This document shows, in pieces, positions 1 to 50,882 of a stretch of 64,000 bases of DNA. The notes under the pieces are model-generated. The model was given only the letters and a program-made list of their open reading frames with translations, was not told the DNA's origin and ran no database searches. Positions within the stretch are counted from its first letter, which is position 1. Every line of letters begins with the position of its first letter. The translations under genes were made by a program, and so were the position numbers. Source of the stretch: Nemertoderma westbladi (Eukaryota; Animalia; Xenacoelomorpha); assembly GCA_032718475.1 (NCBI GenBank), contig JAUCBJ010001698.1:13117-77116 (forward strand), given 5' to 3'.

Positions 1-315
1 TCTGTGCAAATAAAATGAAAATCGCTCTGATTGGTCGAGTGAGTGAACAGAGTGAGCCTGAACAAAGAAAGCTCCACGAGTACACTAAATCAGCTGATAG
101 ATGTCGTAATCTGAACTACACTGTATTAAGAGTATTTTGGCGCATTGCGACACAAAATGGCTTGTTATGTCCGCCAAAGTACACATACAGAAAAAACTGC
201 TTTTTATGTCCGCTAAACACCGATACAGTAAGAAAACGGCTTTTTATGTCCGTTAAAACATCTACAGAGTACTTTGCGGGGAAAATGACTAGCTAATTCC
301 GCAAAAGCCTTTACA
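1..315 (-). repeat. 3' LTR of element A (partial)
   Basis: Direct repeat of 17174-17488; preceded on the minus strand by purine tract GGGAGCGG (316-323). Confidence 0.95.
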
Positions 316-393: not shown

Positions 394-3300
394 TTAGTCT
401 TTCTTGCGCGGACGGCGTTTACGCAGTTTTTTGAGGCTAGCAAGAGTCCTTTTCTCTTTGGGGCGAGCCACTTTACTAGGAGGGCTATAACTCCTGGGTG
501 AAGGGTGCAATACAATTGCATCAGAAGGTTTAGGATTACGGTCGGTGTATCCACCGGTCGAGGTACCTGGTTGATCGATATCTACTTCAGTGGAGCGAGG
601 TCTAACGGCCTTTAGAGCGCGTCTTAGGACAGCAGCTCCTACTGGTCCCTGACGAGTCGTCTGGACAATAGCGGTAGGTGGACCGCGAGTGGTGAGAAAC
701 TTCCTCGGTTTAATGGTTCTTTCCAGCTCGCGTTCTCGGGCTCGATATTCGTAGGGCCGTCGATGTACTTCCTGTAACTCAGGGTGAGAGTTGATGAACA
801 AATCGCCATACTCAGGGTCTTGACGGATGAAATTGGTCAAATTGTATGAATTAATATCGTTAGGATTGATATTCCTGAGATATTTACGAACAAATTTGGT
901 GGAAATACACTCACCTACACGCTTCATTAGTTCGTAACTCGGTGTGCGCGATTTTTGTTCAACAGACGCGAATAGATAAGGATGGAACGCGTAAACTCCT
1001 TCGTAGGCGCGTCCAGGGTAATAGCGATGGCGTGACTCACAATGTAAATCCGCATTCTCTTCCCAAGCTCGGATGTAGCGCAGGGTAATCATCTCATCTA
1101 CGCTTTCCAGATCGCGGTTAAAAGGGCAATCAAAACTGGCATGTCCTTTAAGTTGACAATGATGGCATTGAGTCATAAATTGGGGGCAGACTGCGAAAAT
1201 GTGCGAGTTATTGAGTCTGCAATAAGCACAATAGATCTCCATCATCGGTTGTTCATGGAAATAGGAGCAGGGTACGTGTGAGTCCATAGGGGTGAAATGA
1301 TCTCTCGATGCGCATAATCGGCAACGTTTTCGAGAAACATAGTTGGCGTGCCGATAATCGTATGCGGTGAGACATTGTGGACCTTGATACCATTCCAAGA
1401 CGTAGTCGTTATCGCTGCTCCGGGGCGCTGTAGGCTGAATCTCCTCAGATTCTAAGCATATTGGTTCATCTTCCAATTGCATAGCTGAGGTAGGTGCGGC
1501 TGTCTCCGCAAGCGAACCCACTGTCTGAACTTCCACGACAGAATAACCCGTGGGTATTCGAGGTCTTTGTATAACAGATGAATGTAAGTTCTGTATACAG
1601 ACGTCCTTAAAAAGGGCGAATCCCGTGCTGTCTAACTTCTCCGCAGCTGAGTCTCTTAAGCTGAGCTTGGTCAGAGCGCGGTCCTTGAACTGACTATCAA
1701 CGTTACGGAACGGAGTCAGAAAGCGCCGGAAACATTCGAAGCGGATGAATTTATTGTGTTCATCTAGCTTGGTGAGTTTGGTTCCAAGTATTAAGGGATG
1801 GGCGCGTATGGTACGACTGCACACATCGGCTAGCCAACCGGCAAGTGCGGCGTTTTCAAAGATCGTGTATATAGCTAAGGAGGGACGAAGTGGAACGCTC
1901 ATAAAGCTATACACGGCGCCAGGTGCGGTCAATGGTCCGTCAAAGTATAATCGAGAATAATGATCTCCATATACTTGTTGGTAGTTGATAGGATTTCCAA
2001 CCTTGAAATTCCATCCGTGTTCTTGAAAGGCAAGGTGTCCGATGGAGGTTCGTTGTACTTTAGTGATGCCGCTGGGTGTATTTGCATACATAGTGCGGAA
2101 GAAACCTCGGCCTTCTGCCCAGGGAGCAATCAGCTGAGTATCGACGAAAGGGTATGGAATGTTCTCCATGTTCCGAAAGTCGTTTTGGAGATCTCCATAA
2201 ACAGCTCAGCCGATTTTAAGGATTCTTTCGTTAAACAACATCTCGAGCACGGGCTGGGGTAACATCAATCCATCAATACCCATGGCCGGTTTGCGCTCGG
2301 TGTCAGTGACGTAACGCTGCGCGAGTTCGAATTGTCCATGTCGGAGTTTCTTTTGTATCTCGGTAAGGGTCTCAAAAGAATAATCAATCACATCGGAACA
2401 CGCTCGAGTAAATACGTGGGTAGAACCAGCTAGTCCTCGTATATGTATCATGCGCGTAGTTCCCAGTTCTCCAACCGGAACGCTACCTTCGCTATCGTAA
2501 GTGACAACTCCATACATCTCGATAACGTTAAGAGTCTCATTCCACTCTTTAGTGGCGTTTTCTAGAGTCATTCCCACTGGATGCCACAAGGTAGCGCATT
2601 CGCTAGCATTAGGTAGATCTCTATACTTTAAATATTGTGTAGTATATGTTTCCACATCTCCATATCGTTGTATTCTTTCCTCCTCGAATAACACGTCGAG
2701 ATTCCAGTGGGCTAATCGAGTTTTGATGAATCCATCAAGATTATACGGAGGTATTGTCTCTTTCTCTATTCTGGAAACATTATAGGGTTTTCAAAATGAG
2801 TTTACTTTCACTAACTGATCCAGATGTTTCTGTAGTTGTTCGAGTTCGACAAGATCGAGAGGATTTATGAGTGGTAGAAACTTCAGACTATGTGTAGGAT
2901 CTTCCGGTTTTACCATGTAATATTGAGTTAGATTGACATAATAAGGATGATCTTTAATCCCATAAAACGAGTTCGGTAAAGGTCTAGCGCGTATGTTAAC
3001 CTCGTGTACCATACGAACGGACAAGATCCGCTCTATTGTCCGGAGGTTCAACGAGTATACCATCGACACGAGCGGCCTCGATTGGCGGACGTTGCAACAT
3101 GGGAGCGTCAGCGATAAGATCTCGAGATCTTAGGTTGATATCAACTGGTTGAGGTTGCGCCGTGGCGAAGAGTTTGTCTCCGAAATGGGGAACCATCGAA
3201 GGATGAATGATGGTTTTAGAATAAAGATCAGTCATAAGGATTTGAGCTTCTGGCTGGGCTAAAGCTGCTTCTTCCCTCTCATCCATTTCTATGTGTCTCT

Positions 3301-4495
3301 CCTCGAGCTGATTTTCCTCCGTTTGTCGTTGGAAACGCTCGTCCAGGAACTCTTGTAGAGAATAGGTTCGTCCAAGTTCGATGTCTTCCTCAAGGTTCTG
3401 GATTTCTCGATCGAACTGTTAGGCCTGGGGTTAAGCCTGGACGGTTGTACGGGTTAAACGGCGATATTAGATGACCGCGTCCTAATCCGGCTAGGTAGGG
3501 TTGGCGAATATCTAGCGAGCCCACTACCGGAGTACCGCCGATTAATTGTTCGGGTAACACAAGATCTTTAAACAGTGAGTACAGTTCAGGGGGATCCATT
3601 ATACTATTAGGATCAAGCGTTTGAGGTCTCACTAAGGAATGAGGAGGTCTGACCGAGTATTCCGGAACTCTGATCATTGGTTTGTTTAAGGATCGTTTGA
3701 GCCGAGCGAGCGTAGGTGATACATCGAACAGGTTTCGCTCGAAACTCCCATAAGTATATCGTGTAAAACTGTGTTTAGCGCAACGTCTCCGCGGATGTTT
3801 ATGTCTTTCCGTTTGCTGATTGGGTCTAGGGCATTCGTCGCAGTAATACCAAAGACGCACGTCCTGCAGGGGAAACGCGGGTGATCATTCTCCAGTTTTA
3901 CAATATTCCTCCATCTGTTCGAAGCTATCTGGGACGACAGGTAGCGGTCGATCGGCGGTAAGATACATCATAGTGAAATAGAGCCGTTTGAGTTCTATCA
4001 TAGGGTCATGATGTATACCTTGAGGATATCGAGTTTCTAGATTTTGTTGACTGGCAATATTGAGATATGTTTCTCTCAGGAATTCCAGATAATCGTTGAA
4101 GTCGCTGCGTTTATCTGGCTCTTCAACGTTCTGTTTCGAATAGAATTCTCGTGTTCTATTCTCGGTTTATCGTTACGACTCCGCTGGGTATGATATTTAA
4201 ATAAAACCATTTCCCTTTCGGTGTCTACATCGTCCGTATCGTGTAAATCGATAGGATGGCCAGTAGTTAAGAAGTCCATATACGTACCATTACGATGCGT
4301 ATAGCGAGCGGTGAATTTTCTATAGTCCAATTCACGCATAAGTTGCTCCTGGGACATTGGCGGTTCGATATAACGACCATCGTCTTCCGTAGTAGTTGGA
4401 CCAGCGTCGCCGCGTATTAAGCTATCAACAAACGCTTGTAAAGGTAGAGTATATCGCTCCCTGATACCAAGATCATCTTCTATCAACTCAGTCAT
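394..4495 (-). pseudogene. Element A ORF2: DEDDy-like 3'-5' exonuclease plus CCHC zinc-knuckle protein, broken by stops, frameshifts and a deletion
   Basis: ORF pieces 4076-4495, 3390-3860, 2996-3286, 2791-3069, 2206-2694 and 394-2169 are collinear with C ORF2 and B ORF2; motifs VVTYDSEG, LPQPVLEMLFNERILKIG*AVYGD, FVDT, YTIFE; CAYC..H..C, CHHCQLKGHASFDC; basic tail KKLRKRRPRKKD. Confidence 0.85.
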
Positions 4496-5315
4496 ATCTG
4501 CTATATGAGTTTATTAATATTATAATGAGTTTATATTTAGGCTAGTGGGCGTTGCTGCCTACCCCTCTCTGCCCCCGGACAGTGCAAGATCCTCAGCGCC
4601 GATGTACCGTCGTCGCTGTGTTTTCGCCAACGTGTAGCTACACAACGACAACGATAACCGGCACAAGTCACTCCACTGTCCGTCCCAAAGGCTTAGATTT
4701 ACTTCAGGTTCTTATGGCAGAGTTAGGGCTACTTTCACAATTGCGACTCGCTACTGTAAACACACTTTAGTAGTAACATTCACCTATAAACGTACAAATT
4801 CCACACAACTGTCACAGATTGTACACATTCGGGCCATTTGTCCGTTAGTCAGTGCCTTCCAGAATGTCACGTTATTATTATGTATCCTTGGATACTAGCA
4901 GTGTGCTATTTATTCCCTATGCTATTCAATGGGGCAAGCTTTCTATTGTTCTTTTTAACTCACCTCTAATTCTAGCGTGGTTGTTGCTATGGTGACATTA
5001 TGGAAAGCTAGCAGTAGCATTAGGGTAATTCTCATGCATACAGATCTGGGATGCTATTTAATAGTAATTCTTTAATTGTCAATATCCCCTTTATACATGA
5101 TTTTATAAATTTTATCGGCAATTGACTATCTATTGGAGATTCTCGCACACTAATACACTTAATAGGGTGAATCTCCGCTCCCATATCTATTAATTAATGG
5201 AATTTTGGGAATGTTATAAATTGTATAAAATGACAATTTATCAAATTCATTAAAAGAGATGAATTAGAATTTATTCCCGTAAATTTTATTATTTAATATT
5301 AAAATAGACACAATT

Positions 5316-5610
5316 TTATTCCAGAACATGTCTGGGAACTGGGATCCTTGATTCTAGGAATTTTGTCCTTTTAAGAGTATCGGTAAGTGCTACGATATCT
5401 TAATCGACTAGAATTTTAAAGGATCTGAAATTTGACAGATTTTATAAATATTAATGGTTAATATTTAGGATGGGCACGGGTTTATTCCAGAACATGTCTG
5501 GGGACGTTAACCACTGATTCTAAAATTTTGTCTTTCAAGTATATCGGTGGGTGCCACGATATCTTAATCGACTAGAATTACAGATGGTCAAAGGGTTTAA
5601 CAGATTTATT
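5316..5610. repeat. Two ~130-bp imperfect direct repeats in the pol-ORF2 spacer of A
   Basis: TTATTCCAGAACATGTCTGGG...CGATATCTTAATCGACTAGAATT near 5317 and 5482; also duplicated in C near 53998 and 54197. Confidence 0.8.
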
Positions 5611-6127
5611 TTGAGTTATACGCTACTGTTAAATGGACATCACGCTACTATATGTATTATTTAATATACGGTATGAGAGCAATATCGCACGAAGCAATGT
5701 CAGTGTGAAGAGGCAAGTCGTTTCCAAGGTCTACCCAGAGCTTGGTTTAGCCGAGACACGAGGATCTGAATTTTTCATTCCTAATACTCTACTTTACCAA
5801 TAATACTTGAATATAGTAGGAGCTTTATTGTACTTTAATAAGTACGGATATTTCATCTTACTGTAATCACGTATTTGTAATGTAATACGGACAGTAAGGA
5901 AAGAGAAAAGAATTATTTCTCGCCATCGCACTAAATATATAATATATAAGTAATTAAGTAATAAACACTAATATATTGCACTAATCTACTAAATAATCGC
6001 TAAAATAACATTCTACTAAATAAAATTAAAGAAAACGATTATAATAAAATTACATAATAATACATACATAATATAAAATAATAAAAATATATGAAATAAT
6101 ATAGTCACACACCCACTCCAGACGCTG

Positions 6128-9100
6128 TTACGTTGGGGAGTCCCTAGATGTTTGTTGGATTAGGGAGGTGGTCGTGGGAAGAGTATCTTGCTTTCCATAG
6201 TTTCTGGAGAGTTCTCTGTCTCTTTCCAGTAAACATAAACGACCAACTGGGCGATTGAGCTGTTGCGTCTCGAAGACAATTCCCGGCTTCTTAAAGTTAC
6301 GTCGCATGACGATGAGTTCTACCGATCGCACTAAACCATCGTCCGAGATATGAGTCTCGATGATACGACCTGTCTGCCACCGCTTACGTGGAAGGTCTGA
6401 ATCCACAATAAGGACCATGTCTCCAGCGCTGACGTTTTCTTGCTGCGCAAACCACTTAGTTCGAAGTTGTAGCATGGGCAGATAATGTTTTTCGAAATGG
6501 TCAGCGAAACGACGGGATAACAACTGCATAAGTTGCCAAGTTTGCTGGCAGTATTCGTCTCCGTCTGTGATTTCCGATCGTGGGAGCATGGCTACAGGTT
6601 TTTTCAGTAGGAAGTGCGCGGGTGTTAGCACTTCCAGGGAATCTGGACTCGATGAGACTGGCATAAGCGGTCTCTCGTTGAGATAGGCGGCGATTTCCTC
6701 CATTAACGTCCGCAAAAGTTCGTTGGTGAGATATGCGCGGCATGGCACTATAAAGTGAAATGCGGTCTTCATGCTCCTGATTAATCTCTCCCAACTTCCT
6801 CCCCACCAAGGGGCATCGGCGGCGTTGAAGGTCCAGCTAGATGCTGTTATCCTTAGCTGATCGTCCACCTGTCTTTGGTTCCAATCTTTGACGTAAGCCT
6901 TGATTTCATTGTTGGCACCAATGAAGTTCGTTCCCTTATCAGATTTCATCGTGTTACTAGTTCCAAAGCGAGCGATCTGTCGGCGTAAGCTCAAGATGAA
7001 GCTATTGGTAGATAAATCGTTCACCATATCGAGATGGATAGCTCTACAAGTCATACAGACAAAGATGACACACCATCTCTTGACTATAGTCCTAGCACGA
7101 TATACTTCAATAGGGCCAAATATATCTACACCGGTATTAGTGAAGGGTGGTTCATAGAAGCTTACTCGTTCCCTAGGTAATTCTGCCTCTTGCTGTGTTA
7201 AAGGCCTACTGAATGCTTTCCTACAGGGTATGCAGTTCCTAAGAACTTGGTTCAGAGCTCTACGGGGTTTATAAAAATAATAGCGGGTTCGAATTTCGCT
7301 AAGAACTCGTTCTCTACCAGCATGATAAAGCTTACTGTGAACATCTACAATCATCTTGATTTGTATTTCAAGATTTCTAATGAGTATGGGAAACTTAGTG
7401 TCAAAGGATAATGGAGCATTAGTTAGTCTTCCTCCAACGCGTATTAACCCATCTATCATTGTGCTAGAGAAACGATCCCTTAAGCGCATCTGTGGATTTC
7501 TCAACAACAGGAAATACTTATCGGAATCCTCATAGCATTGCAGGAGTCTCAGTATCTGCTTATTGCTTTCTTCATGCTCCTGGTAACTGATCTTCTCCTT
7601 CAGAAACCTGTCGGATATCTTGTATTTGGGAGTATCTTTAACAACATGGACCTGTGCAGATGTCAGTGGAGCAGTATCACTAGTGGTCTTCGTCCTGGAG
7701 TAGCGATGATGAAAACATCGCTTTAAATATGTAACGGCTTTACAGAGCCGATTCCAGGAACTACAGTGATGTATCGCTCTCTGCAGGAGGAGTGAGAGTC
7801 CTTGCGAGACGTCTGGCGTTCCAGATTTCCAATCTCTCTCTGTGATTTCCACAACAGACTTATTTGTGGCGGGGGATTGTGGATCCAAAGCATCGTCTCC
7901 GGAAGTGTGTAGTACCGACAGATCTATCACAGGTTTAAATAACTTCGATTTACTCGCCCGGGTTTTAGGTTTGACTTTCTCCGCTCCCTTGGCCTGTCTA
8001 ATCTCCGCCGTAGTAAGATAAGGAGGCCATTCATCTTCTTCTTTGCTTAGGAAGTCGGGTCCACCTAACCAGTCTGGAGTATCTATCAGTTCTTGTGGAG
8101 TTGCTCCCCTGGAGGCGATGTCTGCTGGATTAATCGTTCCGGGGCAATGTCTCCATTGACCTATCTTCGTGCGACTGAGGATAATGGCTACTCTGTTGGT
8201 AACAAAGACGCTGAACTGACAGACTTCATTGGTTATATACTCCAACACGAGTAAAGCATCGGTCCAATAAACAGTTTTCTCCAGTGGATAGTCGATCTGT
8301 TCTGTTACATTCCGGCCGATGGCTGTAGCGTATAGAGCCGCTTTTAACTCCGCTCGAGGAACCTTCAACTTGTGGTTAATCAAGGCCTTAGAGGTAACCA
8401 AGGCGACTTTGATTCCATCCGGAGTTTCAACTCTCAGGTAGGCTACTATACCTATTCCCATATCGCTGGCGTCTCCAAACACATGGAGTTGATAGGAATA
8501 CGTAGGGAGAACATGACCAAAATATGAACGGGAAATTATAAAGTTCTCGATGGCTGGTAGAGAATCTTCCCATTTCATCCACTTCTTTAATAGTTCTCCC
8601 TTAAGTGGATCGTCCCATGAGTGGTTTTCAAGCCACATTTGCTGTACTAAACTCCGAGCAATCAATATAACTGGGCTAATAAATCCCAATGGATCGAAAT
8701 AAGTGCTCAGGATACTTAAACAAATCCGTTTAGTCCAAACTGGATTATCTCGCTGTTTTAGCTGAAAAAACAGGATATCTCTCTCTGTGTCCCATTTCAA
8801 ACCAAGAGTCTTGGTTTCTGGAAGATCGTCTTTGATTAGGTCTAGATCTTTCGCTCCTCGGTCTTCTACTGGAATCAATTCCAGAAACTCATGGGAGTTG
8901 CTGGTGAATTTAGTCAATCGAAATCCACCTCTTTTCAAGCACTCTACCGTCCCTTTGGTGACGTCAATGGCTTCTTCCACTGATGGGAGGGACTTTAAAT
9001 TGTTGTCCATGTATATATCCCGTTTGATGTTGACGATCACCTCTTTAGAGAAGGCGTCCCGGTTGTCATCAGCAGTGGTCCGCACCACTGAGCAGACGTT

Positions 9101-12100
9101 TGAAGGGCTTGAGATGATCCCAAAAGCCTGGATGGTCATCCAGTACTCCACCGGTTTCTGATTGAGGTCTCCTTCAGGCCACCACAGAAATCGTAGGCTG
9201 TCGCGATCCCTTTCCAGCGCCTTAACTTGTAAGAACATGCCTTCTATATCCGAAGCAAAAGCAATCGAATATTGTCGTAATCTTAAGAGTATTCCCAACA
9301 AGGATTGGAGTAAGTTGGGTCCAGGCAATAACTCGGAATTAAGTGATTAGCCCATGTAGAGGGCGGAGCCGTCAAATACTACACGGACTTCATGGGGTTT
9401 ACCGGGTTTGGGAACGTAATGATGTGTTAGATAGTACGTCCTCTCAGTTATGGGTGTTTCTTCCGGTACTCGCTCCGCGTATCCTTTGTTAATAAATTTC
9501 TTCAACTGAATCTTGTACATTTCCTTAGCTGAAGCATTTGCCGTAAGGCGTCGATGTAGTTGCGCAATTCTTTTCTCCGCCAAGGGTCGGTTGTTTACGA
9601 ATTTAGGTTCCCGTTTTCGAAATGGTAGACCGATTTCATATCTACCTTGATCTTTAAGAAAACGTGTAGTTGTCTCCTGGATCTGTTTGGCTCTTTCTTC
9701 TTCTACCGATAGGGCCTTATCGTAGGAATTGGGCTCTACGGCCTCTTGAGTAAAGAATCGTACGGCGTGTTCATCCCGAGTTTTCACGTTGTAGCGATCT
9801 ATTACGTCATTCAGTTCGTCGTTATAGTTGACTTGTCCTGATGGACGAATGAGTTGACATAGGTTCACTTGGTTTTGCCAAGTTTCGTTTTCCGTAAGGA
9901 GGTCGATGGTATGGTGTATGGTGTTCCCTCAGTTGGGTCATCCACCTCACTGCTCTCCACTTCCCATCACTTACTTGGTAGACCCGTTCTTTGGGTAATC
10001 TTTCCATGAGAGTTCTACGGGAAGGGCCAGTAAAGTACCAACCTACTCTAGTTCTTCCCGCATAGACTTGTAATGGTTGCGGTTGAGCACGCCGTTTCTC
10101 CAATGTCTCAAGCGCCTCATGCGCATTTTGGCCGATGAGTATTTGCACTCCAGGGTAGTCTGTGTTCAATCTAGGTATCTTAAGCTGCTGGGTGCAATCA
10201 TCCTCGTCCCAGTTATAAGGTTCCACTTGGCTGGTAGCGAAGTTCTTTATCGCCACCATTTTTACTGACCTTATACTGTGTTCTCCTAGTTCATCCTGGG
10301 GGGTGGACAACGCACCTACATAGTAATCTGCAATTACTGTAGATTTCCAAACCTGCATAATTCCTGACATGTTTAACTTAGTTCGGAACTTGGGTTGTCC
10401 AGCAAAGATGTCTTCGGCTAGTTCTTTGTCGATGAATGTTCCTGTGCTGCCGGAGTCAAGAAGGGCGTTCACTATATAGCTTTTTCGTGGCCCGTGGACT
10501 CTCACCTGCACTACGGGAAATTCTCGGATTCCTACATTGGAAGTTGGTGCTTTCCAAGATGGTTGTCGGTCGGGAGTAGTTAGGGGGGGCTCACTGTCGG
10601 TGTCCTTTTCATACGTAAGTGCTCGATACACTGCGGTATTTATTAGGTAACAGGATTCGTCTTCGTCGGAGAATTCGTCCGTATAGAATCCTTCCATCTC
10701 AGAACTTTGGTCAGTGTCGTTCACATCACTGAATTGGACATGTAGTTCGGACTCACTTACCTGACTCGGGCTGTTTCGTTCGAATTCAGTGTGCAACAAG
10801 ATATGATGCTTTGCGCCGCACTTGGCACACCTTGCGTCGGAGTAACAGGTTCGCCGTTGGTGTCCTTGTCTGAGGCAATTATAACACAACCGCTTATCCT
10901 ACATGACTTCACGTCTATCTTTTAATGATTTCTTTAGGAATTCATCACACACATTCAAACGGTGGGGCCCGTCACATAGCACACATTTCGGTTTGATGTT
11001 ACTTACCTTATTCTGAGTAACGTTGTGTACACTCGTTCTTTCCTCGGGCTTTCTTACATGAATTCTCTTAGGAGACGTAGGAGGAGTTTTTCTTAACTGT
11101 TCTCTCCTGTCATTGGTTCGAGACTTGAATTTACCTACGTCTTTAGGCGTTTTGTTGACATAGTAAGATCTTTCAGCTGTCTTCTTCTTGAGAAGCCTGG
11201 CTTTCACCATCGTCGGTATAACACACTGGTGTTACCTTTCTCCTAGAAACGGGTTTCTCACTTACCTTATTTTCCGTTGTCTTCTCTCTGGACTGCTTTA
11301 GGAGCTGTAGTTTTACCTCGCCATCCAAGAATGACATGAGATCAGCCATGGTAGGGTCTCGTCGTTGTTGTTCCATCATATATAACACTTTCTTGTCCCA
11401 GCGTGTACCTACTCCACCCTTTGGTAAAGTAGAGGCCACAGCTCCAATAACCATAGAACTCTGATATTCATGAGACTTACCTAGCCAATCTAATTGTCTA
11501 CAGATCTCCTGAATCTCATCGGAAAACTCTATAATCCCGCTGCTAATGAACTTTCGGGGCGCTACTAATTTTGCATACAAATACCTAGCTATGTTATTCC
11601 TATTACCATACCTGATATTTAATGTATCCCAAAATGTATCCTAATGTTATCTTTGTAATATTCATTAAAAGGTAACCATTTCATCTCATCTCCATTGAAC
11701 TTGACGATCTCTCCCACCTTTACCGCTTGACGGGCTTCGGTTCTAGCCATTTGACGCGTAAAACTTTCTTGGGCCATCGTATTATTTAATATCGAGTTAT
11801 CGGTATATAAATTTCTCGGATTATGATCAGGTCTATATGGAATATCATTGTCAACAGGTTTATAATTACCCTTAATAGGGTTTACTATAGGAGTTTCTAC
11901 TTCACTAGCAGTATAGATGCGTGTAGGCTCCACACCTTGCGCATGAAATACTTCAGACCTAACAGGTTGACACATTGTTACAGGGGGTGGTAGTATACCC
12001 TTTTGTATATTTACCAATTTATCGCGTTCTAACGCGATATTCTGCTGCACTTCTTGCAACTCTAACCTACTCTCTCTGACTGTTCCCTTTAACTGCTGAA

Positions 12101-14097
12101 CAGTCCCTTCCATCTCCCGGACCTGTTGAGAGGAACACAAACGGTGTTCTCTCAGCTGCCTGAGCAGGAGACCCATCTCCCGCCGTCCTTCTTCCACCCA
12201 CTCGACCGCCGAAGCGGGAGGCGCCAACATAGTAGCGGATAGACGAGGGACAACGGGCGACAAATCATTGATATTTCGCTCGGAGTCCAGAACAGGAACT
12301 GTCCCAGAGGCAGTTCTGTTGGGCACAGGTAATTTAGTACTGTGCAAAGGGAGTTTAGGGGTAGGTTCCGGGAGTACAGGTGTCTCTATCACCGAAGGGG
12401 TGGCTTCGAGAACAGGCCTAATTATTTCAGGCTCATCTACTATAGTAGGAAGTCTTTTTACTTTTAATTTGGTCTGTGGGTTCTGTACTACCTAAGTCTG
12501 TGCTAGCTAGTTGCCTTCTCACAGTTGGGGGCAAATCAGGCAATTTCTGACAGTGGGGCGTTCTTCTACGCCTGCTGAGAAGAGATCTATTTGCTCTGCC
12601 TTCAGGATCTGTTGTATCGCCTTCATCCGATGATGAATAGCCCTGTCTCTTGGGGGTGGATCGACTTATCATCTGCATTTGACTAGCTGTTAACTGCTTA
12701 TCTATGTATTCTTGCGTCTCTTGCAGATTTTCCAGCTCTAGTTGGGTGGTCTCTTCAGACGCTCTCCTTTCTGCTTCTGCCACTGCCTCTGCCGCTTTTC
12801 TTTCCGCTTCAGCTGCTGCCACTGCCGCTTTTCTTTCCACTTCTGCCGCTTTTCTTTCCGCTTCGGCCACTGCCACCGCCGCTTTTCTTTTCGCTTCTGC
12901 CTCTGCCGCTGCTGCTGTCTTTCTGTCTTCTATACGTTTTTTCTTCACTTGTTCTTCTTGGACTCTAGCGATGCGGAGGCGTTCATCAAATTTAGCTTGG
13001 TTTGCAGCTAACATTTCCGCATCTATTGCGTCCAACACAAGCTTGGCTCCTTCACTATTAGGGCGAAGTCCAGCCAGCCGTCTCCTCAACTCTTCATCTC
13101 CTAGAAATCTTTGATAGTCTGACAGATAGATGTCAATAGCGTCCCTCGTCTGCGGTTTCTCTGCTGTCGCTTCACTTTCCACTTGAGAGAAGGTAGCGTA
13201 TGTTGATTCTCCATGGGCTGAGCGCTCAGCCAACTGAGATTTCCACTGGGTGGTTCCTTGAACTTTGAGACTCACCCGCTGGAACCAAGTCTTCACGGCA
13301 ACTTGCAACGACGTGTCTTGTTTTCTTTTCGAAGCCTCCTCAAAGGCCGATAGGATTAGTCTGATTCTTAGAATTCTTTCTCTAACTTGATAAAGCAGCT
13401 CTCCCTTCTCTTGAGGTCCTTGGGGTTGTTGAAACAGTTGTTCTTCTAATCGCTCCAAAGAGCTGAAGAATCCCTGTACATATCCTGCTGCTGACCTCTT
13501 CCACACAGCTGGATCACTAGTGTCTTTTGTCACTCCCATCTTGTATATGTCTTCCCAGGCAGCTTCCGATAAGTCAAACGGGAGTCCGGGTCCGGGGAAG
13601 TTCCATTGCGACTCGACAATAGACTTCAGTTCCTCCTTGGTGTATCCCGCATAACTGTCCTTGGTTGATCGCCTACCTCTCGCCCAATCAATTTGGTGTT
13701 CCTCCACCGCAATCAATACCTTAGTGAGTACGGCTGCAGGAAGAAGGAGAAGGGGATCCGAATAAACCGCATCTACCATCCTTGCTCCGTGTTCGGGTGT
13801 CAGCTCTACAGTATCCGAACTACTGGAGCTATCTGGTCGCTGAGAAATAAGTTCTCGGCTCGGGTGTTTCTGCTGTTTGACAGCTGCTTCTTGATCCCGC
13901 TTGACTTGAGCCCGAGTGCCTATGATAGACCTACGGTGTTGGACTAGCCTAGGGTCTGATACTACTACTGGAGGGATGATCTTTCTTATAGTAGGAGGTG
14001 AATTGAACTTCGGTCTCACACATTCCACACTCCTGTCTGGGTCACATATGGTTGTATCTAAGAGACTGTCTGACAGGTTTTGCTTTGTATCAGACAT
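6128..14097 (-). pseudogene. Element A gag-pol polyprotein (Pao type), disrupted
   Basis: Gag KFNGDEMKWLPF; knuckles CVLCDGPHRLNVC, CYNCLRQGHQRRTC, CAKCGAKHHILLH; protease ALLDSGS; RT YYLTHHYV..VRVVFDGSA, SDIEGMFLQV, YMDN (YxDD mutated); RNase H FGDASD, PRAEL, WTDA, NPADIASRG; integrase GVDIFGP, SDKGTNF, WWGGSWER; several stops/frameshifts and a ~110-bp gag deletion near 11630 relative to C. Confidence 0.95.
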
Positions 14098-14224
14098 GTT
14101 TATTTGTACAGTTGAATGCCTACTGCTATATTACAGTTAATGCAAGTCTAATAATTCAGTATCAACTGTTAGCCTAGTAATTAATTACCGATATCGTTAC
14201 TCAGTGTAACGTGATATATATACA

Positions 14225-16003: not shown

Positions 16004-16282
16004 GTACAATCTGAGCAGGCTTACACGCCTTCTGCTCAATATTAGCCTACAAATAAATAAAACTGACAGAAATAAGTAAACCATACAAAGGAATAAGGGG
16101 TGATCAATCCCTAATCCCCTAATAGCCTACAATATACAATATATCACAATCGAAATAATACTAGTATCTGTACTGGTGTAAGTACCGGTCCGGGTGGTTA
16201 GGTAGTTGGGCCTACTGGTTACCGGTCGACCGGTACTTTTCAACTTTATTGCCTACTGCAATAAAGAAGCAATGACTGTTAT

Positions 16283-17488
16283 TGTTCGCGCTTTCAGACC
16301 TTTAGCAGTTTAACCTGCCAAATTTAGGTGTCTTCTAAGTTATAAATCGACTTTAGCCTATGACGAGTATTTGATACACTACATTAGCCGAAGCCAGCCT
16401 ATGCGCGACCATTCACCCGCTGGATATACCCGGGAGACTGGATACGGAAGCTCTGACCTTATTGCGGTGTAGGCCTACTGTATTATTCGATTGATCGTTA
16501 ATATATAATCTCTGACAAATATTATTCACTTTCGGGAAATACTAACAGTTCCTTTAGGACGTGGCGCTCTAAATATATAAACAGAGTTATGACTTATACT
16601 AAACACAACGGGATGGCTAATGATTCACGTATAAGGCGCATTCTTTAGGAGATGCTTTGTTATCTGTCACAGTCATGCACACTACCGCACAATGCTGCAC
16701 ACCGATCTGCCGACCTTCACTAATTTTAGTCACATATAAAGAGAACAGCAATTGACACCTGTAGTGCCTATGAAATAGCATTAGATTCACTCCAAAACCA
16801 ATATCATATAAGTCGCAATTGCTATATGTAACCGGTCTCTTACCTTCAGTATATCAAGAAGATGGGGTTTTATGATTATTTATGGATATTATCCAAATAT
16901 AACAATATTCCATCAACAGATACAATTAATAACCGACAGTAAATAGCAGTAAAATAATGCGGTGAAAGGTATGTATAGCATTTGAGTCTGACCAGTTTGG
17001 TTTGATATGTGCTGACTTGATATGGTTTGATAACAGTTATACGTTTCGGTAATCAAAGCCGTTCTAATGTTTGGCTAAAGTCTGAAACACAGAATAATTC
17101 CATAGCCGATGTTCTGGCATCAGGAAAAAAGGTAAACATAAACCATAATGCATTGCGCGATTTCCCGGAGGCCTCTGTGCAAATAAAATGAAAATCGCTC
17201 TGATTGGTCGAGTGAGTGAACAGAGTGAGCCTGAACAAAGAAAGCTCCACGAGTACACTAAATCAGCTGATAGATGTCGTAATCTGAACTACACTGTATT
17301 AAGAGTATTTTGGCGCATTGCGACACAAAATGGCTTGTTATGTCCGCCAAAGTACACATACAGAAAAAACAGCTTTTTATGTCCGCTAAACACCGATACA
17401 GTAAGAAAACGGCTTTTTATGTCCGTTATAACATCTACAGAGTACTTTGCAGGGAAAATGACTAGCTAATTCCGCAAAAGCCTTTACA
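16283..17488 (-). repeat. 5' LTR of element A (minimum extent; inner boundary uncertain)
   Basis: Outer end fixed by the match to 1-315; clear similarity to C 3' LTR down to 16283, weaker similarity continues further left; CCAAT on the minus strand near 17202. Confidence 0.7.
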
Positions 17489-19830: not shown

Positions 19831-19957
19831 TATAGAATTATATTCTCTAAATGCCGTGGATTTTCAAAATTTTATTTTATTCGAATTAACTTTGTAAAAG
19901 ATTGCTTTGAATCCTCATTTGTATTTGTTATATCTATTGTACGCCTATTGGTCAAGT

Positions 19958-20044
19958 GGTTCAGTAGCTCAGTCGGTAGAGCGTTGGAAATTATATGTGT
20001 AGTAGGTATTGAGTTCGAATCCTAGTAAGAGCGAATTATTTTTT
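19958..20044 (+). other. tRNA-like cassette (Pol III A box, B box, T-run) in the LTR; copy at 36805-36891
   Basis: TAGCTCAGTCGGTAGAGC (intact D arm/A box), GAGTTCGAATCC (B box), followed by T6; acceptor and anticodon stems do not pair. Confidence 0.7.
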
Positions 20045-20101
20045 GTGCAGAATTTCAACTCATTTAAATTAACCGCTACAAATTAATTGCATTTGTCTGT
20101 A

Positions 20102-20383
20102 CCAATGAGACTGTAGTTATTTGATTGTAACCAATGTCGTGCAAGTTATATATTAGCTGGACCAATAGCTATCTTTAAAACCCTGTTAGAACCTATAGAA
20201 CAATCGAGAATTTTCTCGATTGATTGCAGCACAAATTTGCTATATAAAGGTGCGATTTGTTCATTAGTTATTCAATCTTCAATCTTATACATCTCAGTAT
20301 TTACATTCATTATCTCAGTGCATTCTATCTATATCTTTCTGATCTTATTAGTTATTATCTTATCTGTTTGATTTTGTAATAAA
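20102..20383 (+). promoter_or_regulatory. LTR Pol II promoter and polyadenylation signal
   Basis: CCAAT at 20102, 20131 and 20162; palindrome CAATCGAGAA-tt-TTCTCGATTG at 20201-20222; TATATAAA at 20241; AATAAA at 20378. Confidence 0.65.
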
Positions 20384-22624
20384 AGTTAGAAATACTTGTC
20401 AATCTCAGCCCTTTTCTATCTGTTTTACCATGATTCACTACGGTGAACAAACCTAAGGGACAGGATGGCCGGCCAGAGATCGGGCCGCAGCAATGAACGG
20501 GAACATCGGGGGAATGTAGACGAGAGACAACCCGCAATACCATCTTGAGTTATTCGCCCATCGCCTGAAAGGTTAGACAGCGTTCGACGCCTTGCTACCT
20601 AAGTATAAGACCAAAAGATCATAAGGTAGAAGTAGTGGCACGCTGTGAGCCTAAAATTACATCTTAGGGACTGTACTGTCTTGATTCAGGAAAAAACCAC
20701 AGTAGACCTTCATATTCCTACGGGGGGGGGGGAGAGCGCAGGCAGATACTAGTACGCAGATAGGACGTAGGCACACCGGTACGAAGCATACAAATTGGTA
20801 GGGTGCAGCAAACTGTACGCCTAACTCTTGCTAAGTACAGGTGTGTGTGCGACTATTTGTAGTACGACAGTGTCCATTGCATTAGAACTTGTAGGCTAGG
20901 GGGGTTGCTGTGTTTTCACCTGAATTGGGATTGTACCGTTCAGGCGGTAGGGCAGTTTACAGCTAGGCGCAAATAAATTGAGGCTATTAGGGATACTAAC
21001 ATCTACCGTGTCCCCGCCAACGCCCAAATAGGAAGTTACCCGGACTACCTGGGTGACTAAAATTCTAGATAGGAGCCAGGATAGCTATTAGTAACTGTAC
21101 GCCTACAGTAGTAAACTAACACATCTCTTCTTAGTATCAGGGACCTGGTACCTAAAATTGCCGAATTCTGGGCGTAGCATTAACCTTATGCCTGAATTTG
21201 AGTCCTGGAAATACGCAAGAGGGGAAGGAACCTTATCATTCGTGAGTATTGGACCTACAAGTTACAAAATTAGAATATTCGTAAAATGCACACCGTACCC
21301 AGTAATTATATATGTGAAGGAGCAAAACTGTCTTTGACCGTTCAGAATTAACACACGCGCGTTAGAAATTATTTACACCTCAAAATATATAAAATTAACT
21401 TTCGTCCGTACTGTGCTTTGCCCGCTAGTTAGACATCTCCAAATCTCTGCCTGTGTACCTAGCTAGCGTCCTTTCGCCCAACCATATAAATCACACCGCG
21501 GCAAAGTGTACGAGCCTCTTAGTCCGTCAGTGAGTCAGCCTGATTTTAGGATTCGCTGCGCGGGATTTTGTTTCACCGAAGTTTGTCTGCTCGTAGACTG
21601 TTTTCTGCCTCACCGGTTATAAGAGATCAATACTGCAATATATTCGCTTACTTAGTTTACTGTTTTGGTGAGAAGGTCGGATTTATGATTTGATTCACAA
21701 ACTTTACAGTAGGATATTGCAGGTATTGTTACTGTCTCTTCCATATAGTAGGAATAGGCGTATCTCTTCCAATAGTAGGAATATGATTATTTTAACATAT
21801 TTCCTAGAATAGTAGGAATATGTTTTACTGAACTACGGTTCGGTAGGACTAAAGTTATTTGAAAATTTTGTATTTTGAGGTAAAAATTTATATTTGATTA
21901 GCTAAGTGCTAATATTTTGAAAAAAAAAAATTTGATTTGAACCGCGTGTAAAATATTTTGGAATTGAATACCGGTGTTTAAAAAAGGGTTTAAATACCAT
22001 ATTGTACCGGTACAAAATTTTTCGTAAAAGTAAAACCTAACTCTTTTGTTTTTCAGGATTCAGAACTCATTTCTAGACTGTAACGGGAGCAAGACCGTGT
22101 TTAGCAAGTTTGGGAGATAGATAACTCAACAACTTTGGTTGGGAAAATCGCGTTTCGTCCGCAACGTTAAAAACGGAAAGGTTCACGTCCGGTTTGTATC
22201 TGGGAATCTGTTTTTCTGGAGAATTATTGGAGTGGGTGAGTTCAAAAAGTTGCATAAATAAGTTAGGCATTACCGTATTAGTTAAAATTATTGTGGGTTC
22301 CACTGTCTCAAGTATTTATGCATTCCGTATGATTTCTTTGTTCATTGCTGAATTAGTCCGTATTATTGTATTTAATTTACCTTTTGATAACGCATATCGT
22401 TATCCGATTTATTTGTTATAAAATTGGCCACTAGGCTAATTTTATTATATACTTATTCCGTGACATTTATTTGCTGTAAAATTGGCCGTTTAGGCTAATT
22501 TTATCCATCTGCTATAAAATCGGCCGGTAGGCTAATTTTATAAGACTGTAATTAGTACCGTTTAGATAAAATACGGTAAGTTTGATACTTTGACACTCAC
22601 TTTACTTGACTTACAACTACCGAA

Positions 22625-25600
22625 ATGAGTGACAAACAAAACTATACGAAAAATACACAAACCGACTATGACTCATGTGACGCGGATAAGTCAGCAGCGG
22701 AAGAACAACAGGGGAAGACTCGCGAGCCTACCGAACCTACACCGTGTGCGTCACCAGTACATCCAACGGGAGTACCGGATGCCGTAGTACGAGGCGACGG
22801 CAGGACCAAGGACTTTCTAACTGTTCCGCAACCTAGATACAGGGAAACGGACATGGTGAGTTCAGCAGGAAGTCAGGAAAGCGTTGTTAGGAGCGTCGGA
22901 GGATACATGGCGCATATTACCAGGAGTATTGGAGAAGGCCAATGCGTATTAGACGAGTTGACTGCGCCGATGTCTCGATTCGAGTTCTACACCCTCCAGG
23001 TGAGAGTACAGAGTAAAGTATATAAGTCCGTAGATAACCTAATTGGTCTACAAGATCTAGCTAGACAGAGACAGGACATGGATACTCAACTTAGAATCCT
23101 CGAGAAACTAATGATCGCTAGAGAGAAACTGATTCAGTTTAAGTCGACGATTAGACACATACAACAGGAACAAGCGGACCAGTTGTTAGGTGAGTCAGTT
23201 TCGGACGAATTATTACAGCCCGAGGAAGAACAGGAACTGTACCGACTGGATGGACAATTGAAACATCTGACGGACCACTTACGTATGTGCGGCGAAGACG
23301 TCGGCGATTCGGAAACCGTACCGGAATATACGAGGGAAACTTCACCCGTACGAATCGAATCGGCACCGGGAATACTGGACCAATCGTTAGTGAGTATTCG
23401 CAGCGAAATTGGCGAGATAAGTATAGTGACGTCAGAAATTTCCAGACAGCAACAACAAGTGGATAGACAACAACGGGAAGCGGAGGAACAAGCTCAACTG
23501 TTGACGGCACAAGGAGCCGTACAAGAAGAAAAACTACGCGTTGCGGATGTTGCAAGAATCTCTCATCTGCAAGAACAAGCCGAGTTGGAAGCGGCTGAGA
23601 TGGAAAGGTTGGAGCTAGAAATAGCACAGCGAACAGCGGCAGCTGAGTTAGCGCAACAAGCGGCAGCAGCTGAGTTAGCGCAACAAGCGGCAGCAGCTGA
23701 GTTAGAACGACAAGCGGCAGCAGCTGAGTTGGAAGAACACAAGCGAGTTTCGGAAGCAAGAGCTGAAATGAAAAAACGGCAAATAAAGGCTCAATCAGTG
23801 ATAAGACAAGCGGAGCTCGAGGCGCAACAACGACAGACGGAACAACGCGAGAAGGAAGTTAAACTTCATTTCGAACTCGGGAAGAAGGCGAGAGAATTAG
23901 CCAACGCGAAGGAAGATCTGGATCTGCAAGCCCGCGATCGATCAATGAGATCTCGAGACGGACATGACTTGGACCAGATAGAGGTAAGACATCGCCAAAT
24001 TCAGGAATGGAAGAAGGAAGGAAGCGTAGGAGCACCCGGACGGGAACGACAATTAGTAAAGGACTTGTGTCAACGATTCCCACAGGTAACTCATATGTTT
24101 GCACCGGTTACGACTAAGGAACCTGTTTCGATTGCGGGTAGTAGTAACATTTATCCTATCCATGGTGCGACGGAACACAGGTTTGTTATTCCGGACGAGT
24201 TTACACCGCCAAGAGCAACGTCGTCGCCTATTCCGAAAGTCAAGGTAAGTAACCCACCGATTACAGATCGTAGTAGTTTATTAGTCGAACCTGTATTACT
24301 GACGACTAAACAGGTGAGTCCACCTCTGACGCCAAAACCTGTTACACACTACGCTTACCCAATGACGTTTAGGCCAACAAGGCCTTTGGATTCAAACGCT
24401 GTTACTCGACCACCGGTTCAGTTTACATCGCAATCTACGACTTCGAGGAAGACTTGTGAGCCTACCGAACAACAGAGAACAGTGGATACGCGACCGTTCA
24501 ACCAATTTACATCGCAATCTACGACTTCGAGGAAGACTTGTGAGCCTACCGAACAACGGAGAACAGTGGATACGCGACCGTTCAACAAATTTACATCGCA
24601 ATCTACGACTTCGAGGAAGACTTGTGAGCCTACCGAACAACGGAGATCAGTGGACGATGTTCCAAAGCGAAACGTTAGAATTCGTACGACGCAATGGACG
24701 CGAGCACGTCGACCACCATATCCAGATGATAGTAGTACTTCGAGCGAATCGGATTACCCGAAACGCGAGGTATTTAGAACAGGGGCGGCCGATGAATACA
24801 AACGCGAGCGTTCAGACAACTCCTTTGTAGACAATCCTCCACAGAATACACCAACACAGAAGGCGTTACAACCAACGAGGCAAATCAGTACACAACAGTT
24901 CGCCGACATCCTGCGACCAGTTGTTAACAAGTTGGCTCAGATCGAGGAGCGTCTGGAGGAAGTTCAAACCGACAGTTCGAGGAACACTGAGTTCGAACAC
25001 AATAGACACCCGAAGGAACCACAAAGACCGGTACCTTCAAAACACACATCGTATCAGGGAAAAGCGCCAAGAAGGGAGAATATCAACCTGGTTACCAACC
25101 AAGGACGCGAAACTCTGAACGTTGCCGAGGAGATAGCGAAATTCGCAGCCAGACAAGGATTGCCGGTACAACAACCACCGAAGTTTTCCGGTAGCTCAAA
25201 ACACTGGCACACTTTCGTAGACTATATCGAATCCCAGATCGCCATGTGCGCCTTTACATCACGGGAGAAGTTCAATTACCTGCTCCAAACGTTGTCAGGA
25301 GAACCTAAACGTTTGGCAGAGACTTTCGTCGGTGTACCGGACGCCTTCGAACTAGCGTACGATCGTTTAACTTCGATATATGGAGGTACAGTCAGTATGG
25401 CCAGGTCAGTAATAGAGGAACTCTGTAAGGGAGGGGCTATCACTAAACCCGTCGACTTATTAAAACTGGCCGACGAGATAAAGAACGCTATCACTACTTT
25501 AAGATCCATTGGACAACTTGACTACGGGAATACCCCTACAGTCCTATTAAAGATCATAGGACGACTCCACCATCGACTTCGTCGGGAGTGGAGAAAGATC

Positions 25601-35766: not shown

Positions 35767-35829
35767 AAGGGAGGGCAAGGGTGGACGGAAGACTCGTGAG
35801 CCTTTCTTATGATTTGTGATTTATTTGAA

Positions 35830-36677: not shown

Positions 36678-38618
36678 TATAGAATTATATTCTCTAAATG
36701 CCGTGGATTTTCAAAATTTTATTTTATTCGAATTAACTTTGTAAAAGATTGCTTTGAATCCTCATTTGTATTTGTTATATCTATTGTACGCCTATCGGTC
36801 AAGTGGTTCAGTAGCTCAGTCGGTAGAGCGTTGGAAATTATATGTGTAGTAGGTATTGAGTTCGAATCCTAGTAAGTGCGAATTATTTTTTGTGCAGAAT
36901 TTCAACTCATTTAAATTAACCGCTACAAATTAATTGCATTTGTCTGTACCAATGAGACTGTAGTTATTTGATTGTAACCAATGTCGTGCAAGTTATATAT
37001 TAGCTGGACCAATAGCTATCTTTAAAACCCTGTTAGAACCTATAGAACAATCGAGAATTTTCTCGATTGATTGCAGCACAAATTTGCTATATAAAGGTGC
37101 GATTTGTTCATTAGTTATTCAATCTTCAATCTTATACATCTCAGTATTTACATTCATTATCTCAGTGCATTCTATCTATATCTTTCTGATCTTATTAGTT
37201 ATTATCTTATCTGTTTGATTTTGTAATAAAAGTTAGAAATACTTGTCAATCTCAGCCCTTTTCTATCTGTTTTACCATGATTCACTACGGTGAACAAACC
37301 TAAGGGACAGGATGGCCGGCTAGAGATCGGGCCGCAGCAATGAACGGGAACATCGGGGGAATGTAGACGAGAGACAACCCGCAATACCATCTTGAGTTAT
37401 TCGCCCATCGCCTGAAAGGTTAGACAGCGTTCGACGCCTTGCTACCTAAGTATAAGACCAAAAGATCATAAGGTAGAAGTAGTGGCACGCTGTGAGCCTA
37501 AAATTACATCTTAGGGACTGTACTGTCTTGATTCAGGAAAAAACCACAGTAGACCTTCATATTCCTACGGGGGGGGAGAGCGCAGGCAGATACTAGTACG
37601 CAGATAGGACGTAGGCACACCGGTACGAAGCATACAAATTGGTAGGGTGCAGCAAACTGTACGCCTAACTCTTGCTAAGTACAGGTGTGTGTGCGACTAT
37701 TTGTAGTACGACAGTGTCCATTGCATTAGAACTTGTAGGCTAGGGGGGTTGCTGTGTTTTCACCTGAATTGGGATTGTACCGTTCAGGCGGTAGGGCAGT
37801 TTACAGCTAGGCGCAAATAAATTGAGGCTATTAGGGATACTAACATCTACCGTGTCCCCGCCAACGCCCAAATAGGAAGTTACCCGGACTACCTGGGTGA
37901 CTAAAATTCTAGATAGGAGCCAGGATAGCTATTAGTAACTGTACGCCTACAGTAGTAAACTAACACATCTCTTCTTAGTATCAGGGACCTGGTACCTAAA
38001 ATTGCCGAATTCTGGGCGTAGCATTAACCTTATGCCTGAATTTGAGTCCTGGAAATACGCAAGAGGGGAAGGAACCTTATCATTCGTGAGTATTGGACCT
38101 ACAAGTTACAAAATTAGAATATTCGTAAAATGCACACCGTACCCAGTAATTATATATGTGAAGGAGCAAAACTGTCTTTGACCGTTCAGAATTAACACAC
38201 GCGCGTTAGAAATTATTTACACCTCAAAATATATAAAATTAACTTTCGTCCGTACTGTGCTTTGCCCGCTAGTTAGACATCTCCAAATCTCTGCCTGTGT
38301 ACCTAGCTAGCGTCCTTTCGCCCAACCATATAAATCACACCGCGGCAAAGTGTACGAGCCTCTTAGTCCGTCAGTGAGTCAGCCTGATTTTAGGATTCGC
38401 TGCGCGGGATTTTGTTTCACCGAAGTTTGTCTGCTCGTAGACTGTTTTCTGCCTCACCGGTTATAAGAGATCAATACTGCAATATATTCGCTTACTTAGT
38501 TTACTGTTTTGGTGAGAAGGTCGGATTTATGATTTGATTCACAAACTTTACAGTAGGATATTGCAGGTATTGTTACCGTCTCTTCCATATAGTAGGAATA
38601 GGCGTATCTCTTCCAATA
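36678..38618 (+). repeat. 3' LTR of element B (1941 bp)
   Basis: Direct repeat of 19831-21774, preceded by the PPT and followed by TSD ATGTT. Confidence 0.97.
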
Positions 38619-38900: not shown

Positions 38901-39006
38901 TTCTCATTTTTTTGTAGCTAGTTTTAGTCGCTTCCATTTACTTTCTAGAATATCAGATATTATATATTATATTATACATTGAACAAATGACAATATATCC
39001 AGACCT

Positions 39007-50804: not shown

Positions 50805-50882
50805 CCGCTCCCAGAAAATGGGATTTAAGTCTATAAAATATATATAAAATCACAGTTTCGAATATAAAAATACTCTAAACTA

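What the first reader, a model, noticed from the sequence alone, without database searches (positions are those of the whole stretch)
394..4495. Second, highly diverged copy of the exonuclease ORF shows it is an old, selected part of the clade
Seen: A and B share little obvious nucleotide similarity, yet ORF2 keeps the same order of blocks: CxxC..CxxH, exonuclease, SRT...HPL.LG...FRRFL.PF.N.D.Q, GF..F.DV, three knuckles, W..ADxH..R.P.RA..G..A, VRKYL..I.P, basic tail. Inference: long-term purifying selection rather than recent capture of a host exon.
Basis: partly seen in the sequence, partly recalled or inferred. Interest (0 to 1): 0.7.

Follow-up and report, generated by a model that had tools for sequence, protein, structure and literature searches.

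The report
Giant retrotransposons carrying an exonuclease gene
Two very distant 18-19 kb BEL/Pao jumping genes in an animal genome both carry, where an envelope gene would sit, a large extra gene kept under selection that is predicted to encode an RNA-trimming exonuclease with zinc knuckles, likely a tool against host RNA silencing.

Summary
Observation confirmed. Window 394-4495 (- strand) is a broken second ORF of BEL/Pao element A. Its counterpart in element B (32041-35766) aligns at 27% over 747 columns (E 1e-59), although the DNAs give no significant match. Similarity is strongest outside the knuckles (exonuclease core z 51); the basic tail does not align. Selection is shown: dN/dS A versus copy C is 0.09 (CI 0.07-0.13), close to pol. 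C lacks the exonuclease and knuckles, so there the evidence is only a synonymous excess among listed copy differences (26/39 in A, 22/36 in B). The exonuclease call is inferred: D-x-E, D and Y-x3-E motifs, plus one outside homolog whose Atlas model matches DNA_pol_A_exo1; my own folds failed. No close host gene was found, but no genome was held and no tree could be built, so 'one clade' is untested. DEDDy extra ORFs are already known from rotifer Ty3/gypsy elements and Terminons. New here: BEL/Pao host element, about 1,240-1,370 aa with three knuckles, elements about twice the usual family size, and repeated loss of the exonuclease in derivative copies. New variant of a known kind; interest 0.5.

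The parts
394..4495 (-). ORF2 of element A (about 1,367 codons of span; three in-frame stops, three frame breaks)
3771..3842 (-). N-terminal CxxC..CxxH block of A ORF2
   Evidence: (z 17 vs B)
1849..2499 (-). DnaQ/DEDDy-like exonuclease core of A: ExoI D-x-E (2499-2485), ExoII D (2223-2188, one stop beside it), ExoIII Y-x3-E (1869-1849)
   Evidence: fold inferred through P0002
1600..1818 (-). conserved post-exonuclease helical block (SRT..HPL.LG, FRRFL.PF, GF..F.DV)
   Evidence: z 18
1117..1329 (-). three CCHC-type zinc knuckles, not detectably related to the gag knuckles of B
862..1065 (-). conserved post-knuckle block (W..ADxH..R.P.RA, VRKYL..I.P)
   Evidence: z 22
4496..6127 (-). 1.6-kb non-coding spacer between integrase and ORF2; 4828-6127 is 88% identical to C against 61% at fourfold sites
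6128..14130 (-). gag-pol of A (broken): DUF1759, protease, RT, Peptidase_A17 (RNase H region), integrase, DUF5641
1..315 (-). start of the 3' LTR of A, preceded by a short purine tract; runs off the window
   Evidence: 3 mismatches in 315 nt to the 5' LTR
16270..17488 (-). 5' LTR of A (lower end approximate, from similarity to the LTR of C)
19831..21774 (+). 5' LTR of B, 1,944 nt; 5-nt target duplication around the element
22625..31378 (+). open gag-pol of B, 2,917 aa
32041..35766 (+). ORF2 of B, 1,241 codons, one stop at 32494-32496; exonuclease motifs 33448-34056, knuckles 34636-34815
36678..38618 (+). 3' LTR of B (4 mismatches to the 5' LTR)
49733..60184 (-). element C, decayed relative of A (76-85% DNA identity over the long coding matches), lacking the stretch that matches A 814-2669

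Best explanation
ORF2 is an old, selected accessory gene of giant BEL/Pao retrotransposons that is predicted to encode a DnaQ/DEDDy-like 3'-5' exonuclease tied to RNA by three zinc knuckles, and it likely works in trans on RNA 3' ends to blunt host RNA surveillance or silencing of the element's very long transcript. Shown: position after integrase as a separate sense ORF in two very distant lineages, purifying selection, conserved acidic motifs, conserved spacer, no membrane segment, loss of the exonuclease in some copies. Inferred: nuclease fold and activity, expression from its own subgenomic RNA, RNA as substrate, counter-defence as the role.
For: Homology A/B outside the knuckles. dN/dS 0.09, CI 0.07-0.13, beside 0.04-0.07 for pol domains. 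Listed copy differences are synonymous in 26 of 39 (A, 800-2900) and 22 of 36 (B ORF2) against about 0.27 expected; none of 9 listed indels in B's run contigs falls in ORF2. Four acidic positions are kept in A and B. P0002, the only hit of 3 that matches outside the knuckles (E 2e-6; z 21 and 9.5 to the B and A cores), has D-x-E, D, Y-x3-D and three knuckles, and its Atlas model matches PF01612 DNA_pol_A_exo1 clusters at TM 0.57-0.62. The only PDB sequence hit of the core profile is EXD2, at ExoII (E 0.68, weak). Maximum 19-residue hydropathy 1.4, so no env-like anchor. The spacer is more conserved than fourfold sites (p 2e-19). The exonuclease is missing from C and skipped by joints 32180-34213 (runs X1, X4) and 32200-34325 (X2), so it is not needed in cis. 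Separate ORF3 units and a 3'-end processing or silencing role were proposed for rotifer DEDDy ORFs (PMC5408684).
Against: No Pfam exonuclease match for A or B. Both AlphaFold models failed (pLDDT 30 and 33), so the fold rests on motifs and one distant homolog with its own low-confidence model (pLDDT 0.44). The last acidic residue is Glu in A and B, not the usual Asp, and its alignment to P0002 is loose. In the exonuclease core alone only 11 of 21 listed differences are synonymous (p 0.01-0.05). Nothing here shows expression, activity, substrate or any link to silencing. Copies without the domain exist, so its benefit may be small or occasional. One-time acquisition is untested.
Confidence: 0.45

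Rival explanations
1. The domain is a catalytically dead RNA-binding scaffold, like EXD1 or Maelstrom, that helps package or chaperone the long genomic RNA together with the knuckles.
For: ExoIII Glu instead of Asp in both lineages; extra conserved non-nuclease blocks; inactive DEDD derivatives exist in piRNA pathways (PMC5408684 discussion).
Against: All four positions stay acidic after about 65% divergence; rotifer element ORFs also swap one Asp for Glu and were read as intact (DEED).
Confidence: 0.22
2. The exonuclease edits or trims reverse-transcription products (proofreading or cDNA end processing), which would help an 18-19 kb retroelement copy itself.
For: Elements are 18.8 kb (B) and at least 18.4 kb (A) against 4.2-10 kb usual for the family; the closest fold family includes polymerase proofreading domains.
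Against: Separate ORF, not fused to pol; RNA-type knuckles; copies lacking it exist; giant Burro elements are described without one in the passages read; rotifer elements with DEDDy ORFs are not described as giant.
Confidence: 0.13
3. The exonuclease-knuckle module is a mobile cassette that A and B lineages picked up separately or exchanged long ago; it is selected, but not a clade marker.
For: P0002 has the same module as a 558-aa protein of unknown context; DEDDy ORFs were gained at least twice and exchanged between element classes in rotifers; N-termini, middle part and tails of A and B do not align.
Against: Same place, strand and block order, a shared N-terminal Cys/His block that P0002 is too short to hold, near-identical purine tract before the 3' LTR, long LTRs and long gag N-termini in both; ORF2 is more diverged than pol, as co-descent predicts.
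Confidence: 0.17
4. A recently captured host exon or neutral passenger.
For: The host genome could not be searched.
Against: dN/dS 0.09; one long intron-free ORF in B; two copies with no DNA similarity; no close protein.
Confidence: 0.03

Closest known systems
DEDDy ORF3 of bdelloid rotifer Juno and Vesta LTR retrotransposons (Rodriguez, Kenefick, Arkhipova 2017, PMC5408684)
   Same: Separate ORF after pol in the env position; DEDDy-like exonuclease with one Asp-to-Glu swap; no membrane segment; function untested.
   Different: Those are not described as BEL/Pao elements (Juno, Vesta; Ty3/gypsy-like by my recall); motif DEED against D-E-D-E here; no triple knuckle described; no departure from neutrality was found there for the env and GDSL ORF3s tested, whereas selection is shown here. 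Sequence relation to them could not be tested.
Terminon (Athena Penelope-like) DEDDy ORFs and Dada DNA transposon DEDDy domains (PMC6431247, PMC3706591)
   Same: Mobile elements carrying a DEDDy 3'-5' exonuclease.
   Different: Other element classes; in Dada the domain is inserted in the transposase.
Belpaoviridae / BEL-Pao elements with env (Tas, Cer7, Cer13, Atlas)
   Same: Gag-PR-RT-RH-IN order, triple Cys-His gag, YVDD, extra gene after integrase.
   Different: Extra gene is not env; elements 18-19 kb with LTRs up to 1.9 kb against 4.2-10 kb and 0.2-1.2 kb (PMC8742986). I recall, unverified, that Malik et al. 2000 noted a 3'-5' exonuclease-like domain in a nematode Cer element; that paper is not held.
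Cellular WRN / EXD2 / Mut-7 / RNase D exonucleases (PF01612)
   Same: ExoI-II-III spacing; ExoII stretch resembles EXD2; fold of homolog P0002.
   Different: No significant direct match; insertions in the core; Glu at ExoIII; joined to three knuckles and two unknown blocks.

Membership tests
BEL/Pao LTR retrotransposons (Belpaoviridae) | Two LTRs, purine tract before the 3' LTR, target duplication | tested here: met
   B: 1,944/1,941-nt LTRs with 4 mismatches, 5-nt duplication, purine tract; A: same tract, 315 nt of both LTRs. B's LTR ends are TA..TA rather than TG..CA.
BEL/Pao LTR retrotransposons (Belpaoviridae) | Gag-PR-RT-RH-IN order with Pao-specific families | tested here: met
   DUF1759, Peptidase_A17, Integrase_H2C2, DUF5641 in order in A and B; YVDD in B.
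BEL/Pao LTR retrotransposons (Belpaoviridae) | Triple Cys-His box in gag, third ending in H | tested here: met
   Seen in B gag; pattern as in PMC554778.
BEL/Pao LTR retrotransposons (Belpaoviridae) | tRNA primer-binding site after the 5' LTR | tested here: inconclusive
   No TGG directly after B's 5' LTR; A's LTR end is not fixed; no host tRNAs to compare.
BEL/Pao LTR retrotransposons (Belpaoviridae) | Placement in the RT tree of the family | not testable with these tools
DnaQ-like DEDDy 3'-5' exonucleases (PF01612) | ExoI D-x-E and ExoII D at canonical spacing | tested here: met
   Invariant D41, E43, D131 in alignment A2 of B, A and P0002.
DnaQ-like DEDDy 3'-5' exonucleases (PF01612) | ExoIII Y-x3-D | tested here: not met
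   Y-x3-E in both A and B; Y-x3-D only in P0002. So: works like a DEDDy nuclease, a variant rather than a canonical member.
DnaQ-like DEDDy 3'-5' exonucleases (PF01612) | RNase H-like fold | tested here: inconclusive
   Own models pLDDT 30-33; strand-helix order fits; homolog P0002 matches PF01612 clusters at TM 0.57-0.62.
DnaQ-like DEDDy 3'-5' exonucleases (PF01612) | Metal-dependent 3'-5' activity | not testable with these tools
   Needs an assay.
Bdelloid retroelement DEDDy ORF pool | Clusters with Juno/Vesta/Terminon DEDDy ORFs; DEED motif | tested here: inconclusive
   Motif differs (D-E-D-E); no rotifer protein was among the hits, but those sequences may not be in the collections.
env genes | Signal peptide and membrane anchor | tested here: not met
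   Maximum 19-residue hydropathy 1.38 in B and 1.19 in A pieces; no env family in Pfam.

The most novel reading that the evidence does not exclude
An undescribed clade of giant BEL/Pao retrotransposons owes its 18-19 kb size to a captured 3'-5' exonuclease that either destroys host silencing RNAs or edits reverse-transcription errors, as nidovirus ExoN does for large RNA genomes (comparison recalled), with exonuclease-less copies parasitising the enzyme in trans.
Probability: 0.15. Interest if true: 0.85.

Novelty: new variant of a known kind. Interest (0 to 1): 0.5.

Why it matters
Extra enzymes in LTR retrotransposons are rare, and the rotifer DEDDy ORFs were left without evidence of selection or function. 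This locus supplies that evidence in another superfamily: two deep lineages, low dN/dS, a conserved upstream spacer, and natural deletion derivatives in a high-copy, recently mobile family (B's LTRs differ at 4 of about 1,940 nt). It gives a testable case of an animal retrotransposon that may carry its own RNA-degrading counter-defence, and a chance to ask what lifts the roughly 10-kb size limit.

Tried and rejected
Pfam found only weak knuckle hits for ORF2; a repeat scan at E 10 failed on a frame slip and was not rerun. phmmer of the B core against PDB: 0 hits. Word-seeded protein searches: 0 of 4,610 candidates, only itself for P0002, 0 of 7,994 for alignment A1; lengths outside the near range were not searched. 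Two of the 3 representative hits (P0001, P0003) are knuckle-only matches to gag-like proteins and were dropped. Atlas: no usable hit for the B segment. AlphaFold alone and with 3 rows: unusable; Foldseek best E 0.26, mostly PRP8 RNase H-like chains, VIA-align only generic helical matches, Z up to 6.4: no verdict. No related loci in metagenome or viral contigs; the context of P0002 stays unknown. No RNA holder listed; X5 is only guessed to be RNA, so expression is untested. No Rfam match or tRNA in the window. Earlier findings: none. ORF2 knuckles as a copy of gag knuckles: rejected (z 1.5 and 2.9 against 12.9). P0002's post-knuckle part looks similar by eye but is not significant (z 1.1, 2.0). 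A programmed frameshift near A 4130-4150: both A and C change frame there, but through indels of different size and place, so two lesions are simpler; not excluded. TGA read-through code: rejected, the four stops face different residues in other copies. Paper searches for an exonuclease in BEL/Pao elements found none; subscription papers, Repbase and supplements were not seen.

Full report
Setting. The window holds three BEL/Pao LTR retrotransposons. A lies on the - strand from 17488 past the window start; B on the + strand at 19831-38618; C, a decayed relative of A, at about 49733-60184. B has an open 2,917-aa gag-pol, LTRs of 1,944 and 1,941 nt with 4 mismatches, and a 5-nt target duplication. 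A's two LTRs differ at 3 of the 315 nt that can be compared. B is 18.8 kb and A at least 18.4 kb; the family profile gives 4.2-10 kb and LTRs of 0.2-1.2 kb (PMC8742986, whole text; PMC3118150, passages).

The observation. After integrase each of A and B has a non-coding spacer (1,632 and 662 nt) and then a long sense ORF ending shortly before the 3' LTR. In B it starts at 32041 and runs 1,241 codons with one stop; in A it spans 4495-394 with three stops and three frame breaks. DNA similarity between A and B is not significant (best E 0.023, in pol). The proteins align at 27% over 747 columns, E 1e-59, with a second N-terminal block at E 2e-9. Block by block against 300 shuffles: exonuclease core z 51 (35% identity), post-exonuclease block z 18, knuckles z 15, post-knuckle block z 22, Cys/His block z 17; tail, linker, middle part and extreme N-terminus are not significant. 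RT-RH and IN are 44% and 45% identical in the same test.

Selection. A and C share 656 comparable ORF2 codons: dN 0.068, dS 0.72, ratio 0.09 (bootstrap CI 0.07-0.13); pieces range from 0.03 to 0.21; pol domains give 0.04-0.07, the stretch between RNase H and integrase 0.28 and gag 0.13; shifted frames give 1.45 and 1.67 (pairwise counting on a blastn alignment, stop codons and gapped codons left out). C lacks everything matching A 814-2669, so this test misses the exonuclease and knuckles. For that part I laid public run contigs on A 800-2900 and B 31400-36000. Of 40 listed differences in A (517 more not shown), 39 were classed after leaving out one stop place: 26 synonymous, 25 at third positions. 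Of 40 listed in B (99 more not shown), 3 lie in the spacer and one is the stop: of 36, 22 are synonymous. About 0.27 is expected without selection. In the exonuclease cores alone it is 11 of 21 (p 0.01-0.05). These lists are the best-supported rows and include changes private to the window copies. The stop in B and the stop beside ExoII in A are not seen in the contigs of the three and four runs that cover them, so these are lesions of these copies. None of 9 listed indels in the B stretch lies in ORF2; one is listed in the A stretch. The spacer of A is 88% identical to C over 1,290 nt against 61% at 219 fourfold sites, so it is constrained too, likely as expression or packaging signal (inference).

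What the protein is. Pfam does not recognise it beyond weak knuckles. A full HMMER read of 1.84 billion representatives gave 3 hits; one, P0002 (558 aa, unnamed ENA contig), matches the core (E 2e-6; z 21 to B, 9.5 to A) and also has three knuckles. The three-way alignment keeps ExoI D-x-E, the ExoII K-x-G..D stretch and an ExoIII tyrosine; the last acid is Asp in P0002 and Glu in A and B. P0002's Atlas model (pLDDT 0.44) matches DNA_pol_A_exo1 clusters at TM 0.57-0.62, and 25 of 30 feature hits are 3'-5' exonuclease clusters, a family carried by 34% of the best such cluster. The core profile's only PDB sequence hit is EXD2 at ExoII, E 0.68. My two folds failed and their searches gave nothing usable. 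So 'DnaQ-like exonuclease' is a well-supported inference, not a direct result. The knuckles are unrelated to gag's. There is no membrane segment.

How it likely works. A separate ORF in the env position with a constrained spacer would be made from its own subgenomic RNA, as ORF3s typically are (PMC5408684). Knuckles would hold RNA for the nuclease. The domain is absent from C and is skipped by joints in three DNA runs at two breakpoint sets (32174/32180-34213 in X1 and X4, sides 24-26 letters; 32200-34325 in X2, side 50), so elements persist without it in cis. An accessory, faster-evolving, trans-acting RNA enzyme fits counter-defence best (0.45). Rivals: dead RNA-binding scaffold (0.22), separately acquired cassette (0.17, about history only), editing of cDNA (0.13), passenger host exon (0.03). 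No step of the mechanism beyond selection and anatomy is shown.

What is known. Rodriguez et al. 2017 (PMC5408684; parts 1-3 of 5 read, main text, no figures or supplement) report DEDDy ORF3s with a DEED motif in rotifer Juno and Vesta elements and in Terminons, gained at least twice, with no activity shown. Passages of PMC6431247, PMC5718144 and PMC3706591 (Dada DNA transposons) confirm these cases. Passages of PMC3118150, PMC2774666, PMC554778, PMC9094657, PMC535339 and PMC9289625 had no occurrence of 'exonuclease'; PMC11662393 had one, about LINE endonucleases. Nine searches (listings and abstracts) gave no BEL/Pao case. I recall that Malik et al. 2000 mentioned an exonuclease-like domain in a nematode Cer element; the paper is not held, so prior art in this family is possible, and Repbase was not seen.

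Verdict. Real, selected and old; the 'clade' claim and the enzyme activity remain to be tested. New variant of a known kind, interest 0.5.

Noticed in passing
window 4828-6127 and 53504-55047: The non-coding spacer is far more conserved between A and C than silent sites and holds a twice-repeated unit of about 160-200 nt (5343-5610; 54024-54326); no Rfam match.
   Followed up: partly
window 6128-11640 vs 55050-59857: dS between A and C is 2.2-2.9 in protease and N-terminal RT but 0.5-1.1 in RNase H, integrase and most of ORF2, which suggests recombination between sublineages.
   Followed up: no
window 19831 and 38618; 50805 region: B's LTRs begin and end TA..TA and C's begins TA, while A's begins TG; no TGG primer site directly follows B's 5' LTR.
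   Followed up: partly
window 22625-25100 and 11640-14130: Gag has a very long N-terminal part (about 800 aa in B) with coiled-coil and repeated segments; both start with a similar short stretch.
   Followed up: no
window 32174-34325: Run contigs show deletion derivatives of the B family that skip about 2.0-2.1 kb including the exonuclease, paralleling the deletion in C.
   Followed up: partly
window 60212-61369: A separate RVT_1 reverse transcriptase fragment (Pfam E 3e-32, LINE-like by my reading) abuts the truncated end of C, with partial repeats to 64000.
   Followed up: no
window 38930-39611 and 43516-44275: A 43-nt tandem array right after B, and a 161-nt repeat array in direct and inverted orientation.
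   Followed up: no
window 35775-36413 and 15418-16004: AT-rich repeats in B's 3' untranslated part and a duplicated 290-nt unit in A's 5' leader.
   Followed up: no
protein P0002: A 558-aa exonuclease plus three-knuckle protein on a 7.5-kb unnamed contig, alone in its cluster; whether it lies in a mobile element is unknown.
   Followed up: partly
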